From Alphaproteobacteria bacterium (lineage in GTDB: Bacteria > Pseudomonadota > Alphaproteobacteria > CAAHEQ01 > UBA3637), in the NCBI GenBank assembly GCA_045118155.1, contig JBGUXS010000078.1, positions 443 through 64,442 on the forward strand: a DNA stretch of 64,000 nucleotides, given 5' to 3'. Every line of letters starts with the position of its first letter. Positions within the stretch are counted from its first letter, which is position 1. Shown piece after piece: positions 17,304-63,808 of this stretch. Under the pieces are notes generated by a model. The model was given only the letters and a program-made list of their open reading frames with translations, was not told where the DNA came from and made no database searches. Both the position numbers and the translations under genes were made by a program.

Positions 17304-17393
17304 TGGCGGATGGAGTGAGATTCGAACTCACGTTGGGCGTAAACCCAAACACACTTTCCAGGCGTGCGCCTTCAACCACTCGGCCATCCATCC
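17304..17393 (-). tRNA. tRNA-Ser (anticodon GGA), CCA encoded
   Basis: The minus strand reads GGATGGATGGCCGAGTGGTTGAAGGCGCACGCCTGGAAAGTGTG...long variable arm...GAGTTCGAATCTCACTCCATCCGCCA. It has a 7-bp acceptor stem, a T-loop GTTCGAATC and anticodon loop CTGGAAA. Confidence 0.93.
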
Positions 17394-61400: not shown

Positions 61401-61833
61401 AAAAGGGAAAAAATTTGCTTTTGTTTCTTTAGCCGATAAAAGCGGACTATTAGATATTGGTTGTTTCGCAGAAAGTTATGAACTGTACAAAGATTTATTA
61501 AAATCTGGAAAACCCGTTTTACTAACAATAACCGCGGATTACAATAAAGAAGGGAACGCTATTCGTTCTTCTGTTCAAAAGGTAGAATATTTAGAAGATG
61601 CTGTTTCTAAAACACATTCTGTTCTACTTATTCATTTGAATCAATCACAGGCTTTACCGGAAATAAAAAAAGTACTTTCCACTTTGGCACCTGGAAACAA
61701 TGGGGTCTATTTTTTACTAGAAACACCTCTTGCCGATGTAGAAATCGGCCTTAAAGAAAAATACGCCATCCACACGGACACAATTGAAATTTTAAAGCGT
61801 ATTCCCGGGATTTCAGAAATTCAAGCCGTCTAA
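58429..61833 (+). CDS. dnaE: DNA polymerase III alpha subunit
   Basis: PHP domain FIHLHVHTAYSLLEGA, GPGRGSGAGSVVAW, PDFDVDF, and an OB fold at the C-terminus. Confidence 0.97.
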   Translation: MISPPFIHLHVHTAYSLLEGAIKVEHLVEKTVQDGLPAVAMTDKGNVFGAMALAHSATDSGIQPILGCELLIRLDDPTRKFGEPQFKKLVVLVKNEEGYTSIRHLFRTYYMGPGKEEVPHLTLDEFISQPQGLIVLTGGPDGLINTCLLNKWDEQAKSILKTLQNAFPNRLYIELQRHGTEEEIKTEPLLLQLALDFNLPIVATNEPFFEDAAMYEAHDAYLCIADKTYVVEQNRRRVTPEHYLKTATQMTELFSDLPEALENTVKIAQQCYFMATKKKPAFPIFDCGEYTEDDLLDKNAHEGLKLRVGHLPPEEQKVYFDRLEYELGIIKKMGFSGYFLIVADFINWSKNNGVPVGPGRGSGAGSVVAWSIKITGINPLRFHLLFERFLNPERVSMPDFDVDFCQENREKTIEYVQKKYGFDHVAQIITFGKLQAKAVIRDVGRVLQVPHPVVDRLAKLVPNTLNITLKEALEVEPELQKQADADEMIAHLLKIALQLEGLYRNTSTHAAGVVIGDKPLEEIIPIYKDPSSDMPVTQYNMKYVEDASLIKFDFLGLKTLTTIAKTMGLLGDKGNFNIQDLPLDDPETYKLFKAATTVGVFQLESAGMRQILRDMQPDTIEDIIALISLFRPGPMDNIPTYIARKKGLEEPDYMHPMLESILKETYGIMVYQEQVMQISQKMAGYTLGGADLLRRAMGKKKKEEMAKQRDIFIEGAKKNGVTKETAETVFDKMAKFAEYGFNKSHAAAYAYISYQTAYLKAHYPAEFMAATMTLDKTNTDKLAVFKADITKFGVEVVSPDINLSEVDFSVKDGKIIYALSAIKNVGEAGMAQIVEERKKNGPFKSLQDLFSRVDASAFNRRYLEQMIKAGVFDSLHNNRAQLFNNIDKMLAYATGTTEQRNSSQISLFGEQTLAELKLDPATSWPMLEQLEYEKEAFGFYLSHHPLDMYEGVFERLRIVPSTDIESMVQNVGAICVNVAGIVAGFRERINQKGKKFAFVSLADKSGLLDIGCFAESYELYKDLLKSGKPVLLTITADYNKEGNAIRSSVQKVEYLEDAVSKTHSVLLIHLNQSQALPEIKKVLSTLAPGNNGVYFLLETPLADVEIGLKEKYAIHTDTIEILKRIPGISEIQAV

Positions 61834-62048
61834 AATTTTTCAATATCTTCCGGCAAAATTGACATATTCCAATCATAGGAAATTTCCCCTTCGTCGTCAT
61901 TTTTATAAATGACCCCTAGGAATTCTTTTCCTACAAACACCTCACTGGGGGAATCTTTTCCTTCTCCTTCTGTAACACGAATTTCAGGATTCCAAAACAG
62001 TTGTTGCAAATACGTTTGGACTTTTTCCATTTCTTGTGCAGTCATCAT
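61830..62048 (-). CDS. DUF3126-family small protein
   Basis: KVQTYLQQLFWNPEIRV, SPSEVFVGKEFLGVIYKNDDEGEISYDWNMSIL. The start is taken at MMTAQE; the ORF is open to 62108. Confidence 0.7.
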   Translation of the reverse strand: MMTAQEMEKVQTYLQQLFWNPEIRVTEGEGKDSPSEVFVGKEFLGVIYKNDDEGEISYDWNMSILPEDIEKF

Positions 62049-62093
62049 GTTTTTTTCCTTTCTATTTAAGGGCATTTGTATCATAATAGAAGA

Positions 62094-63050
62094 ATGATAA
62101 AAAAGCAAGTTTTTCGTGATAAAAATCCAAATCTAATTTCCATTGCTCCAATGTTAGATTATACGGATACTTTTTTCCGCCTTTTTTTTAGGCATATTTG
62201 TGTTCATGCTATGCTTTATACAGAAATGCTTCCCATCGGGGCGGTTTTACATCAACCACAAACTTTTTTAAAAGCCCAACGCACCCCTGGCCCATTAACG
62301 GCACAACTAGGGGGAAATAATCCGGGGGAACTTGCAGAATGTGCCTACCGGCTAGAACAAGCGGGTTTTGATGGGGTCAATTTAAATGCAGGTTGTCCAT
62401 CTGAACGGGTACAAGCAGGGTCTTTTGGGGCATCGTTAATGAAAACCCCAGAAGTTATTGCTGATTGTTATCAAGCCATGGCGTCCAAAGTTAAGATCCC
62501 TGTATCTATTAAAACCCGTCTAGGATTCGTTGGGGAAGATTTAGCAGAAAAAACCCAAAATCTAACCAAAATTTTATATCAGGCAGGGTGTCGACACCTG
62601 ATTTTTCACGCTAGACCCGCCGCTTTAAACAAATCCCCGAAAGAAAATCGGCAAAATTTACCCTTGCATTATGAAATTGTGTATAAAATCAAGGCAAAAT
62701 ATCCAGATTTATCTATCACGTTAAACGGCTCTATTTTATCAGACGAGGCCATTCATACTCATTTACAGCATGTGGACGGCGTTATGATTGGCCGGTGGGC
62801 TTATGGGAATCCATATGCTTTAACAAGAATAGATAAGGATTATTTTGGGGATGATCATCCCATTTTAAAACGAACAGAAATTTTAGAAAAAATGATACCT
62901 ATTCTTGAAAAAGCCCCTGCTTTTTTAGAAGCCGCCAAAAGTATGATGGGATTGTTTCACGGGACACCATATGCAAAAAAATACAAAAATGTTCTCATGG
63001 CACGGGATTTAGGCCTTTTAAAAGAATGGCTTACCACCATAAAAGAATGA
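62094..63050 (+). CDS. dusA: tRNA-dihydrouridine synthase A
   Basis: ISIAPMLDYTD, VNLNAGCPS, VSIKTRLG, LIFHAR. The start is taken at MIKKQVF. Confidence 0.88.
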   Translation: MIKKQVFRDKNPNLISIAPMLDYTDTFFRLFFRHICVHAMLYTEMLPIGAVLHQPQTFLKAQRTPGPLTAQLGGNNPGELAECAYRLEQAGFDGVNLNAGCPSERVQAGSFGASLMKTPEVIADCYQAMASKVKIPVSIKTRLGFVGEDLAEKTQNLTKILYQAGCRHLIFHARPAALNKSPKENRQNLPLHYEIVYKIKAKYPDLSITLNGSILSDEAIHTHLQHVDGVMIGRWAYGNPYALTRIDKDYFGDDHPILKRTEILEKMIPILEKAPAFLEAAKSMMGLFHGTPYAKKYKNVLMARDLGLLKEWLTTIKE

Positions 63051-63131
63051 AACATCAACTTTCCGCGATTATAGGAAAAATATTGCGCAAAAAGGGGATA
63101 TCCTCGCATAAATCATCGCTCACCCTATCCA

Positions 63132-63320
63132 TAAAAAATGCCCTATTTTGGGGCTTTTCTAAGCTAAAGGTGGCTGGATTAGGGATCAACGAATGACGGA
63201 ACGGATAGTTGGTGAGAACAAGCTGCTAAGCACAGTTTGAACCTTACGACGTGAGGAGGACCCGTTTACGGGAGTACCCAACCGAATCCGTCCACTTACC
63301 ACTTAGCAACACCCCAATAT
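63132..63320 (-). ncRNA. Candidate ~190-nt structured small RNA, family unassigned (strand tentative)
   Basis: It lies in a 390-bp non-coding gap. On the minus strand a promoter (TTGTGA-16-TGtTATACG, 63328-63355) sits upstream. The terminator GCCCC-AAAAUA-GGGC-AUUUUUUAU lies at 63131-63154. Two long nested helices are visible. The outer one pairs GGGGUGUUGCUAAGUGG with CCACCUUUAGCUUAGAAAAGCCCC. The inner one pairs GACGGAUUCGGUUGG with CCAACUAUCCGUUCCGUC. An inner hairpin CCCG-UAAA-CGGG is also present. Several G-U pairs exist only in the minus-strand reading. Confidence 0.45.
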
Positions 63321-63388
63321 GCGGTCTTCGTATAACACAAATTTTATAAATCACAAGAAAAATATAAGAAGAATAGGCCATATTGCAC

Positions 63389-63416
63389 TTGACTTTTTAA
63401 AATGAAAATATACTCT
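63389..63416 (+). promoter_or_regulatory. Candidate promoter for orf121/sod (CTTGACTTTTTA -35 element, weak -10)
   Basis: TTGACT lies at 63389-63394. The best -10 options are TATACT (14-bp spacer, too short) or TACTCT (16-bp spacer). Confidence 0.35.
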
Positions 63417-63442
63417 GTTATCAAAGAACAAAGGACATTTAT

Positions 63443-63808
63443 ATGTCACAGGAACGCATACCCAAAGACAAGGTAGAAATTATTACCTTAAGGCGTTTCT
63501 CTCACAGATTATTTTGCTTACCTTACACCGAAAAACAAAAAATAAAAGAACAAGTTTTACACATGTCTTCGGCACTTAAACTGGCTCTACTCGCTAAAAA
63601 CTGTTTAACCTTAGAAAAAAATCTTAACCCCTTAGAAAGCTATACCATCACTCCAGAACAATTTAAAAAAAATTTTTATACGCCGGCGCGTCTACTGTTT
63701 GATCACCCTGAATATCAGGCCCTTTTTATTTCTTTTCTTTTTACAGATCATTTGGTCACTAAACAAAAAGCATTTCCTAAAAAAGAAAAACTGCTTTCTG
63801 CTTGCTAA
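63443..63808 (+). CDS. Hypothetical protein (121 aa)
   Basis: Intact ORF with no recognisable motifs. It follows the candidate promoter. Confidence 0.5.
   Translation: MSQERIPKDKVEIITLRRFSHRLFCLPYTEKQKIKEQVLHMSSALKLALLAKNCLTLEKNLNPLESYTITPEQFKKNFYTPARLLFDHPEYQALFISFLFTDHLVTKQKAFPKKEKLLSAC

What the first reader, a model, noticed from the sequence alone, without database searches (positions are those of the whole stretch)
63132..63355. Unassigned ~190-nt structured RNA with its own promoter and terminator
The 390-bp gap between dusA and orf121 has no credible ORF. It does contain an extended -10 promoter (TTGTGA-16-TGtTATACG) and a strong intrinsic terminator on the minus strand. Between them the sequence folds into a long, irregular, nested hairpin with an asymmetric internal loop of about 20 nt and an inner CCCG-UAAA-CGGG stem-loop. 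The size and rod-like fold are 6S-RNA-like. On the opposite strand, short strings (GUUGGUGAG, UUGAACC) also echo E. coli 6S. I could not fit the sequence to tmRNA, SRP RNA or RNase P RNA signatures.
Basis: seen in the sequence. Interest (0 to 1): 0.5.

Follow-up and report, generated by a model that had tools for sequence, protein, structure and literature searches.

The report
Broken glutamine tRNA gene copy, not 6S
The "unassigned 190-nt structured RNA" is a partly decayed extra copy of a glutamine tRNA gene, promoter included, whose anticodon loop is split by an 82-base insertion; it is not a 6S-like regulator, and its one odd feature is that the insertion is letter-perfect in an unrelated contig.

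Summary
The gap is non-coding and G+C-rich. It matches no Rfam family, and its overall fold is no better than shuffled sequence (z -0.94).

A metagenome scan found a second genome (L079/L089). There the same promoter (TTGTGA-16-TATACT) drives a canonical tRNA-Gln(CUG), and just upstream a paralogue with the same 82-nt insertion in the anticodon loop.

The window element (63165-63316, minus strand) aligns to that tRNA from promoter to 3' end:
- The acceptor 5' strand and the anticodon stem are intact.
- The D-stem, T-loop, 3' acceptor strand and CCA are degenerate.
- The -10 hexamer has lost its final T.

The element sits in a ~335-bp block missing from the nearest relatives (L077, L078). One close strain (L094) has deleted it. 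It borders a recombinant dusA allele.

Best reading: a laterally imported, non-decoding tRNA-Gln relic that may still be transcribed.

One result stays unexplained. The insertion differs at 0-1 of 82 positions between genomes, while the flanks differ at 17-19 of 89. It may therefore be a selected payload or a recently mobile insert.

The parts
63351..63356 (-). -35 hexamer TTGTGA of the inherited tRNA-Gln promoter
   Evidence: Read. Identical to the -35 hexamers in front of V and of the canonical tRNA-Gln in L079.
63329..63337 (-). Extended -10, TGT-TATACG. The homologues read TGC-TATACT, so the final T is replaced by G here.
   Evidence: The consensus scan did not call it. The L079 homologues were called, 9 of 12 matches with TG.
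63284..63316 (-). tRNA-Gln 5' part: acceptor 5' strand UGGGGUG, a D-arm with a broken stem, anticodon-stem 5' strand ACGGA, and loop bases UUC
   Evidence: Alignment A2. Stem counts. The homologous L079 segment is 94% identical to E. coli tRNA-Gln.
63202..63283 (-). Insertion A, 82 nt. It replaces UGA of the anticodon loop UUCUGAU. It contains CCCG-UAAA-CGGG, CCUCCUCAC and a second hairpin.
   Evidence: Delimited by nhmmer and alignment A2. It differs at 0-1 of 82 positions from L079.
63165..63201 (-). tRNA-Gln 3' part: U38, anticodon-stem 3' strand UCCGU, variable loop CAUUC, degenerate T-arm GUUGA-UCCCUAAU-CCAGC, acceptor 3' strand CACCUUU, then A73. No CCA.
   Evidence: ARAGORN does not accept it as a tRNA even after A is replaced by TGA.
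63133..63154 (.). Short bidirectional hairpin (63140-63154) with U-runs on both strands. It would end both dusA (plus strand) and the tRNA-like transcript (minus strand).
   Evidence: plus strand only. The stem is kept through changes in L076 and L080. It lies at the edge of the divergent dusA tract.
63113..63136 (-). Post-terminator segment homologous to the sequence that follows the tRNA-Gln terminator in L079
   Evidence: Local alignment score 38, against 14.0 +/- 1.9 for shuffles.
63051..63386 (.). Block of about 335 bp, made of a tRNA-Gln locus fragment. Present in the window, L076 and L080. Absent in L077 and L078. Deleted in L094.

Best explanation
SHOWN:
- Positions 63165-63316 on the minus strand are a copy of a tRNA-Gln(CUG) gene together with its own promoter.
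- An 82-nt insertion (63202-63283) takes the place of the anticodon.
- In this lineage the D-stem, T-loop, 3' acceptor strand, CCA end and the last base of the -10 hexamer have also decayed.
- The copy arrived as part of a ~335-bp fragment of a tRNA-Gln locus, of the kind seen intact in L079/L089.
- That fragment lies at an indel and recombination hot spot between dusA and orf121.

INFERRED:
- RNA polymerase probably still starts at the weakened tRNA promoter and stops at the short bidirectional hairpin. The product would be an RNA of about 190 nt that keeps tRNA-like acceptor and anticodon stems.
- This RNA cannot decode. It has no anticodon and no T-loop.
- In this genome it most likely has no required function. 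It is a pseudo-tRNA relic, and its hairpin also serves as the dusA terminator.

Confidence in the identity (a tRNA-Gln derivative, not 6S) is about 0.95. Confidence in the 'relic without required function' reading is about 0.5, and that is the figure given below.
For: Identity:
- A metagenome scan found L079. It holds a canonical tRNA-Gln(ctg), confirmed by ARAGORN and by Rfam tRNA at 60 bits.
- Directly upstream of it lies a paralogue, V, with the same insertion.
- The window element aligns to both copies from the -35 hexamer to the 3' end.
- V nt 1-34 are 94% identical to E. coli tRNA-Gln.
- V becomes a recognisable tRNA-Gln once A is replaced by TGA and B is removed.
- V's architecture was recovered in two independent assemblies.

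Decay:
- Acceptor stem 6 of 7 pairs, two of them G.U.
- D-stem 1 of 3 pairs.
- T-stem 4 of 5 pairs, with T-loop UCCCUAAU.
- No CCA.
- The -10 hexamer is TATACG, against TATACT in L079.
- ARAGORN rejects the window element even after in-silico removal of A.

Dispensability and import:
- The block is absent in L077 (DusA 84% identical, gap of 42 bp) and in L078 (61%).
- It was deleted in the close strain L094 through an AGAAATTA microhomology.
- L080 carries an extra 760-bp PNPOx cassette next to it.
- The dusA allele is recombinant: four-fold-site divergence K4 is 0.40, against 0.035 for dnaE, and the divergent tract ends at the hairpin.
- Divergence of the element within the lineage is 3 of 152, which equals the background rate.

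Fold:
- The whole-transcript fold is not better than shuffles.
Against: - Insertion A differs at 0-1 of 82 positions between the window lineage and L079. Promoter, leader and tRNA parts together differ at 17-19 of 89 (Fisher p about 1e-5 to 1e-6). A purely neutral relic does not predict this.
- The acceptor-stem changes are C-to-U changes that keep pairing as G.U on the sense strand. The one change in the L076 anticodon stem, A-U to G.U, also keeps pairing.
- The -35 hexamer and the TG of the extended -10 are retained.
- No expression data are available.
- Only two lineages carry the element, so covariation cannot be tested.
Confidence: 0.5

Rival explanations
1. A tRNA-scaffolded small RNA. 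The tRNA-Gln frame supplies the promoter, end processing and stability. The conserved 82-nt insertion grafted onto the anticodon stem is the functional payload. One possible action is pairing through its CCUCCUCAC (anti-Shine-Dalgarno-like) stretch, or binding a protein.
For: - The insertion differs at 0-1 of 82 positions, against 17-19 of 89 in the flanks.
- In L079 the scaffold of V is identical to the neighbouring functional tRNA, and V has its own promoter.
- The acceptor and anticodon stems are kept in the window lineage through G.U-compatible changes.
- Precedents exist. Pseudo-tRNA tRNA-Other acts within a regulatory RNA in B. cereus (PMC3399842). Engineered tRNA scaffolds stabilise RNAs grafted into a tRNA frame (PMC3401473 and PMC3753655, listed; the graft position is from my own knowledge).
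Against: - The sense-strand fold of the insertion is weak (z -1.1 and -1.8), and two of its hairpins carry A.C mismatches on the sense strand.
- CCUCCU is mostly paired: P(unpaired) is 0.2 in the window and 0.02 in V.
- The scaffold is eroding here and the -10 hexamer is damaged.
- The element is absent or deleted in the closest relatives.
- No further homologues were found in phages, plasmids, IMG/VR or E. coli.
Confidence: 0.28
2. The 82-nt insertion, and the ~72-nt T-loop insertion B seen in L079, are small selfish or recombinational inserts that target tRNA hairpin loops. They would be comparable to the intervening sequences found in rRNA hairpin loops. The insertion would have spread recently between co-resident bacteria, so its identity reflects youth, not function.
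For: - Sequence is identical in two genomes from the same metagenome, while the flanks differ.
- Both inserts sit exactly in the anticodon loop and the T-loop, which are the two loop sites used by tRNA-targeting integrases (PMC4383910, listed; Williams 2002, from my own knowledge).
- The insertion folds best on the strand antisense to the tRNA gene, as a well-defined four-way junction (z -3.1 and -2.25; the minimum-energy structure equals the centroid). That suggests an orientation of its own.
- The L079 locus is an array of tRNA-Gln fragments, with ATCCAGCCACC present six times in both orientations.
- AT-rich cargo genes lie next to the array.
Against: - There is only one copy per 64-kb window and per 21-kb locus.
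- No terminal inverted repeats or target duplication could be defined.
- No integrase or transposase lies within 21 kb.
- Nothing similar was found in IMG/VR, phages or plasmids.
- The mechanism is unknown.
Confidence: 0.18
3. A divergent 6S RNA or another housekeeping RNA such as tmRNA, SRP RNA or RNase P RNA.
For: - The size is about 190 nt, with its own promoter and terminator.
- Two short strings are shared with E. coli 6S on the plus strand.
- A G3.U70 pair and A73 in the degenerate acceptor stem loosely recall tmRNA.
Against: - No Rfam hit at E <= 10.
- ARAGORN finds no tmRNA.
- No similarity to E. coli ssrS on either strand.
- The whole element aligns to tRNA-Gln.
- It is missing at this site in close relatives and deleted in a near-identical strain, so it is not essential.
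Confidence: 0.02
4. A functional intron-containing tRNA-Gln whose insertion is spliced out, either as a group I intron or as an archaeal-type intron.
For: - The insertion is in the anticodon loop, where bacterial group I introns sit (bioRxiv 10.1101/2020.01.27.920355, listed).
- The exons of V in L079 are identical to the functional tRNA.
Against: - 82 nt is far below group I size, and there is no Intron_gpI hit.
- Removing the insertion leaves UUC+U, not a 7-nt loop with an anticodon.
- No bulge-helix-bulge motif can be drawn by inspection.
- The window copy also lacks a T-loop and CCA.
Confidence: 0.02

Closest known systems
Canonical bacterial tRNA-Gln(CUG) gene
   Same: - Same promoter architecture as the tRNA-Gln gene in L079.
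- Same acceptor 5' strand, D-loop, anticodon stem, variable loop and T-stem.
- The 5' half of the homologous L079 copy (V) is 94% identical to E. coli tRNA-Gln.
   Different: - The anticodon is replaced by an 82-nt insertion.
- The D-stem, T-loop, 3' acceptor strand and CCA are degenerate.
- Neither ARAGORN nor the Rfam tRNA model recognises it.
tRNA gene fragments and pseudo-tRNAs left at integration or recombination hot spots (Islander, PMC4383910; van der Gulik et al. 2023, PMC9897764)
   Same: - In L079 it lies next to an intact tRNA gene, in an array of repeated tRNA 3'-end fragments with adjacent AT-rich cargo.
- In the window it sits in a strain-variable spot.
   Different: - It is not a simple displaced 3' fragment. 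It keeps the promoter and both halves of the tRNA, with internal insertions.
- No integrase lies nearby.
B. cereus tRNA-Other, a pseudo-tRNA inside a regulatory RNA (Rogers et al. 2012, PMC3399842)
   Same: A non-decoding tRNA-like element that may have been recruited as part of a larger RNA.
   Different: There are no expression, phenotype or target data here. The extension is inside the anticodon loop, not at the ends.
Group I introns in bacterial tRNA anticodon loops
   Same: The position of the insertion.
   Different: - The size is 82 nt, against roughly 200 nt or more for group I introns (my own knowledge).
- No catalytic-core match.
- Excision would not restore an anticodon loop.
6S RNA (ssrS)
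   Same: Length of about 190 nt and a stand-alone transcription unit.
   Different: - No covariance-model hit.
- No closing-stem/central-bubble architecture.
- Sequence homology is to tRNA-Gln.
- Not conserved at this site in the nearest relatives.
Engineered tRNA scaffolds (PMC3401473, PMC3753655) and rRNA intervening sequences (from my own knowledge)
   Same: A structured RNA module is grafted into the hairpin loop of a stable RNA.
   Different: These are analogies only. Processing, stability and excision were not tested.

Membership tests
tRNA (Rfam RF00005 / ARAGORN) | Recognised by a tRNA covariance model or by ARAGORN | tested here: not met
   No tRNA hit at E <= 10. ARAGORN found none, even with introns allowed or with A replaced by TGA.
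tRNA (Rfam RF00005 / ARAGORN) | Sequence homology to a specific tRNA gene, including its promoter | tested here: met
   Alignment A2 to the L079 tRNA-Gln and to V, from -35 to the 3' end. The E. coli tRNA-Gln match is.
tRNA (Rfam RF00005 / ARAGORN) | Seven-nucleotide anticodon loop carrying an anticodon | tested here: not met
   The loop reads UUC + 82 nt + U.
tRNA (Rfam RF00005 / ARAGORN) | Canonical T-loop (UUCRANY), intact D-stem and a CCA end | tested here: not met
   T-loop is UCCCUAAU, the D-stem has 1 of 3 pairs, and the 3' end is A-GCU.
tRNA (Rfam RF00005 / ARAGORN) | Seven-base-pair acceptor stem | tested here: inconclusive
   Six of 7 pairs remain, two of them G.U, with a U1.U72 mismatch.
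6S RNA (RF00013) | Covariance-model match | tested here: not met
   No hit on either strand, even at E <= 10 in a 236-nt search.
6S RNA (RF00013) | Long closing stem, large central bubble and terminal stem | tested here: not met
   The predicted fold has no such architecture and has z = -0.94. The pairs that are conserved are tRNA stems.
6S RNA (RF00013) | Binding to the sigma-70 holoenzyme and templating of product RNA | not testable with these tools
   Needs biochemistry.
tmRNA | tRNA-Ala-like domain with a T-loop, plus a tag reading frame that ends in a stop codon | tested here: not met
   ARAGORN finds no tmRNA and Rfam has no hit. G3.U70 and A73 are present, but the T-loop is degenerate. 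By inspection, the frame holding ..LAA has no stop after it.
Group I intron in a tRNA | Catalytic core (P3-P9), and excision that restores the anticodon loop | tested here: not met
   No Intron_gpI hit. The insertion is 82 nt long. Removing it leaves a 4-nt loop.
Displaced tRNA fragment at a genomic-island integration site | Repeated partial tRNA segments next to an intact tRNA gene | tested here: met
   This holds in L079: ATCCAGCCACC occurs six times around tRNA-Gln. In the window itself there is only a single copy.
Displaced tRNA fragment at a genomic-island integration site | An adjacent island carrying a tyrosine integrase | tested here: not met
   No integrase domain was found among the genes called within 21 kb of the L079/L089 array. 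None lies beside the window copy.

The most novel reading that the evidence does not exclude
The V-type genes (this element and L079 V) would be a previously undescribed class: bacterial tRNA-Gln paralogues that carry structured modules grafted into the anticodon loop (82 nt) and the T-loop (about 72 nt). Two sub-readings are open. One is a natural tRNA-scaffolded regulatory RNA whose payload is under near-absolute constraint. The other is a new kind of small insert, neither a group I nor an archaeal-type intron, that targets tRNA hairpin loops and moves between co-resident bacteria.
Probability: 0.3. Interest if true: 0.6.

Novelty: new variant of a known kind. Interest (0 to 1): 0.33.

Why it matters
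- It removes a false lead. This is neither a new 6S-like regulator nor an orphan housekeeping RNA.
- It shows how a tRNA gene copy can escape every standard RNA finder once a loop insertion hides the cloverleaf. That matters for annotating metagenome-assembled genomes.
- If the perfectly conserved insertion proves to be selected or mobile, it would be a rare bacterial case of a non-group-I insertion in tRNA loops. It would then be either a natural counterpart of engineered tRNA scaffolds or a tRNA analogue of rRNA intervening sequences.

Tried and rejected
Searches that found no assignment:
- Rfam at the gathering threshold and at E <= 10, on 64 kb, 2 kb and 236 nt: nothing.
- ARAGORN for tRNA and tmRNA: nothing in the region.

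Reading by eye as SRP RNA, RNase P RNA, two-piece tmRNA, YrlA, an attC site, a bulge-helix-bulge intron or a hammerhead: no defining motif was found.

An apparent pseudoknot between helices 21-31/99-109 and 38-54/119-133 dissolved. The first helix is D-arm against insertion and is not kept in L079. The second is the anticodon stem extended by the insertion.

Searches for homologues:
- The genome-contig scan with DusA gave only relatives at 49% identity or less, none with the element.
- Insertion A has no match in plasmids or phages or in IMG/VR.
- The E. coli genome search with V matched only the tRNA-Gln part.
- IMG/VR hits to insertion B and to the 3'-end motif were chance 18-mers.
- A concatenated six-frame pseudo-protein of V, meant to catch spurious ORF calls in 5.8 billion proteins, found nothing.
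- The GDP-fucose synthase route recovered only the same L079 strain.

Other tests:
- Similarity between the antisense strand of A and L079 unit 3 is not significant.
- B and B' keep their stems but show no compensatory changes.
- The anti-Shine-Dalgarno idea is weak, because CCUCCU is mostly paired.

Full report
1. THE OBSERVATION

The gap between dusA (ends at 63050) and orf121 (starts at 63443) holds only ORFs of 56 aa or fewer. G+C rises to 47-51% over 63150-63350, against 27-37% on either side.

The minus strand reads TTGTGA (63351-63356), then 16 nt, then TGT-TATACG (63329-63337). Further downstream it has a short hairpin at 63140-63154 followed by AUUUUUU. The consensus scan called no promoter, because the -10 hexamer ends in G. 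It called the hairpin only on the plus strand. The hairpin is therefore a weak, bidirectional terminator rather than a strong one.

The folds are unremarkable. The minus strand has z = -0.94 and the plus strand z = -1.49. Rfam gave nothing for this stretch at the gathering threshold or at E <= 10, even when only 236 nt were searched. ARAGORN found no tRNA or tmRNA there.

2. RELATIVES

The species-representative genome collection holds nothing closer than 49% DusA identity, and nothing there matches the gap. The protein database gave closer relatives:
- L076 (DusA 94% identical) has the same gap at 96% identity.
- L077 (84%) has only 42 bp between dusA and the orf121 homologue.
- L078 (61%) has dusA followed directly by sodB.

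So a block of about 335 bp (63051 to about 63386) is specific to the window's lineage.

3. THE KEY RESULT

I scanned the metagenome collection with a purine/pyrimidine-coded pattern taken from the element. It returned two contigs from one sample:
- L080 is a strain 97% identical to the window.
- L079 is an unrelated contig. An independent ENA assembly, L089, is identical to it across the whole array.

In L079 the promoter TTGTGA-16-TATACT occurs twice.
- The second copy drives a canonical tRNA-Gln(ctg). ARAGORN confirms it, and the Rfam tRNA model scores it at 60 bits.
- The first copy drives a paralogue that I call V. V is the same tRNA with two additions. An 82-nt insertion (A) replaces UGA of the anticodon loop. 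A ~72-nt insertion (B) sits in the T-loop.

The window element aligns to both genes from the -35 hexamer through the tRNA body. V nt 1-34 are 94% identical to E. coli tRNA-Gln, and that is the only E. coli match on either strand. This also disposes of any similarity to ssrS. V with A replaced by TGA and B removed is called tRNA-Gln by ARAGORN. The window element treated the same way is not.

4. ANATOMY IN THE WINDOW (minus strand)

The parts, in order:
- tRNA position 1 is at 63316.
- The 5' part runs to 63284.
- Insertion A covers 63283-63202.
- The 3' part covers 63201-63165.

The state of each stem:
- Acceptor stem: 6 of 7 pairs, reading G2.U71, G3.U70 and U1.U72.
- D-stem: 1 of 3 pairs.
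- Anticodon stem: 5 of 5 pairs.
- T-stem: 4 of 5 pairs, with the loop UCCCUAAU in place of UUCGAAU.
- Discriminator A, and no CCA.

The 24 nt beyond the terminator are homologous to the sequence beyond the tRNA-Gln terminator in L079 (score 38, against 14 +/- 1.9 for shuffles). A fragment of a tRNA-Gln locus was therefore imported as one block.

The inner CCCG-UAAA-CGGG hairpin belongs to the insertion. The two strings that 'echo 6S' lie on the antisense strand of the insertion.

5. CONTEXT AND DISPENSABILITY

Four-fold-site divergence (K4) between the window and L076 or L080 is:
- 0.035 for dnaE,
- 0.05-0.07 for orf121,
- 0.40 for dusA.

The divergent tract runs from about 62200 to about 63150 and ends at the hairpin. 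L080 and L094 carry an extra 168-aa PNPOx-like gene between dusA and the hairpin. L094 has lost the tRNA-like element and the first codons of orf121, through a deletion between AGAAATTA microhomologies.

Within the lineage the tRNA-like body differs at 3 of 152 positions, which is the background rate. The locus is thus a strain-variable spot, and the element is dispensable in nature.

6. WHAT REMAINS ODD

Insertion A differs at 0-1 of 82 positions between the window lineage and L079. The promoter, leader and tRNA parts together differ at 17-19 of 89 (Fisher p about 1e-5 to 1e-6). Within L079, the tRNA parts of V are identical to the neighbouring tRNA. Gene conversion may therefore have inflated the divergence of the flanks. 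Even so, the promoter spacers of the window, V and the tRNA gene look about equally distant from one another, by my own count on alignment A2.

The insertion folds into a well-defined four-way junction on the strand antisense to the tRNA gene. There z is -3.1 (L079) and -2.25 (window), and the minimum-energy structure equals the centroid at 21% of the ensemble. On the sense strand it folds poorly, with z of -1.8 and -1.1.

The insertion has no match in plasmids, phages, IMG/VR or E. coli. No spurious ORF covering it exists in the protein database. In L079 a second, diverged copy of B keeps its three hairpins but shows no compensatory change.

7. INTERPRETATION

The identity is secure at about 0.95. 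This is a tRNA-Gln paralogue disabled by an anticodon-loop insertion. It is not 6S RNA, tmRNA, SRP RNA, RNase P RNA or a group I intron.

For the mechanism I commit, at about 0.5, to a laterally imported and partly decayed pseudo-tRNA. It may still be transcribed from the inherited but weakened promoter to the shared hairpin. It does nothing that the cell requires.

Two rivals stay alive:
- A tRNA-scaffolded small RNA whose conserved insertion is the payload (about 0.28). Precedents are tRNA-Other in B. cereus (PMC3399842) and engineered tRNA scaffolds.
- A young insert that targets tRNA loops (about 0.18).

These two readings account for the conserved insertion better than the relic reading does. 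They account less well for the eroding scaffold, the damaged -10 hexamer, and the element's absence or deletion in close relatives. The closest literature on tRNA fragments at integration sites is PMC4383910 and PMC9897764.

8. VERDICT

The 6S-like interpretation is not supported. The finding is a variant of a known kind, a disrupted tRNA gene or pseudo-tRNA, with one statistically solid loose end: the invariant 82-nt insertion.

Noticed in passing
window 62200-63150 (dusA and its 3' flank): The window's dusA allele is 9% divergent from strains L076 and L080 (K4 = 0.40), while dnaE and orf121 on either side are 1-3% divergent (K4 0.035-0.07). This is a recombinant tract whose right edge is the hairpin at 63140-63154.
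   Followed up: yes
L080 3525-4286; L094 1060-1702: Two close strains carry an extra cassette of about 760 bp, with a 168-aa PNPOx-like ORF, between dusA and the hairpin. The window and L076 lack it.
   Followed up: partly
L094 1690-1710, corresponding to window 63092-63475: A close strain has deleted the tRNA-like element, the orf121 promoter and about 11 codons of orf121. The deletion lies between two AGAAATTA microhomologies.
   Followed up: yes
L079 2236-2308 and 2686-2750: A three-hairpin insertion of about 72 nt (B) sits in the T-loop of the tRNA-Gln paralogue V. A diverged second copy (B') sits in another tRNA-fragment unit. Stems are kept and loops vary, but there are no compensatory changes. 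The window's odd T-loop, UCCCUAAU, may be the scar of a lost B.
   Followed up: partly
L079 2476-2830: An array of tRNA-Gln-derived units. ATCCAGCCACC occurs six times in both orientations. Terminator hairpins are bracketed by inverted tRNA 3'-end fragments. One unit consists of a tRNA acceptor 5' strand, about 105 nt of unrelated hairpins and a tRNA 3' end. AT-rich genes of unknown function follow.
   Followed up: partly
window 63165-63172 with 63310-63316: The degenerate acceptor stem reads G2.U71, G3.U70 and discriminator A73. That is the alanine-identity pattern, but there is no CCA. It probably results from C-to-U decay.
   Followed up: no
window 63195-63290, plus strand: The antisense strand of the insertion folds into a sharply defined four-way junction (z -2.25 in the window, -3.1 in L079). 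It matches no Rfam family.
   Followed up: partly
window 61830-62108, minus strand: A small ORF between dnaE and dusA. Its orthologue in L076, L077 and L078 is a conserved 72-aa DUF3126 protein.
   Followed up: no
window 17304-17393, minus strand: The only tRNA detectable in the 64-kb window is tRNA-Ser(GGA). No intact tRNA-Gln lies in the window.
   Followed up: yes
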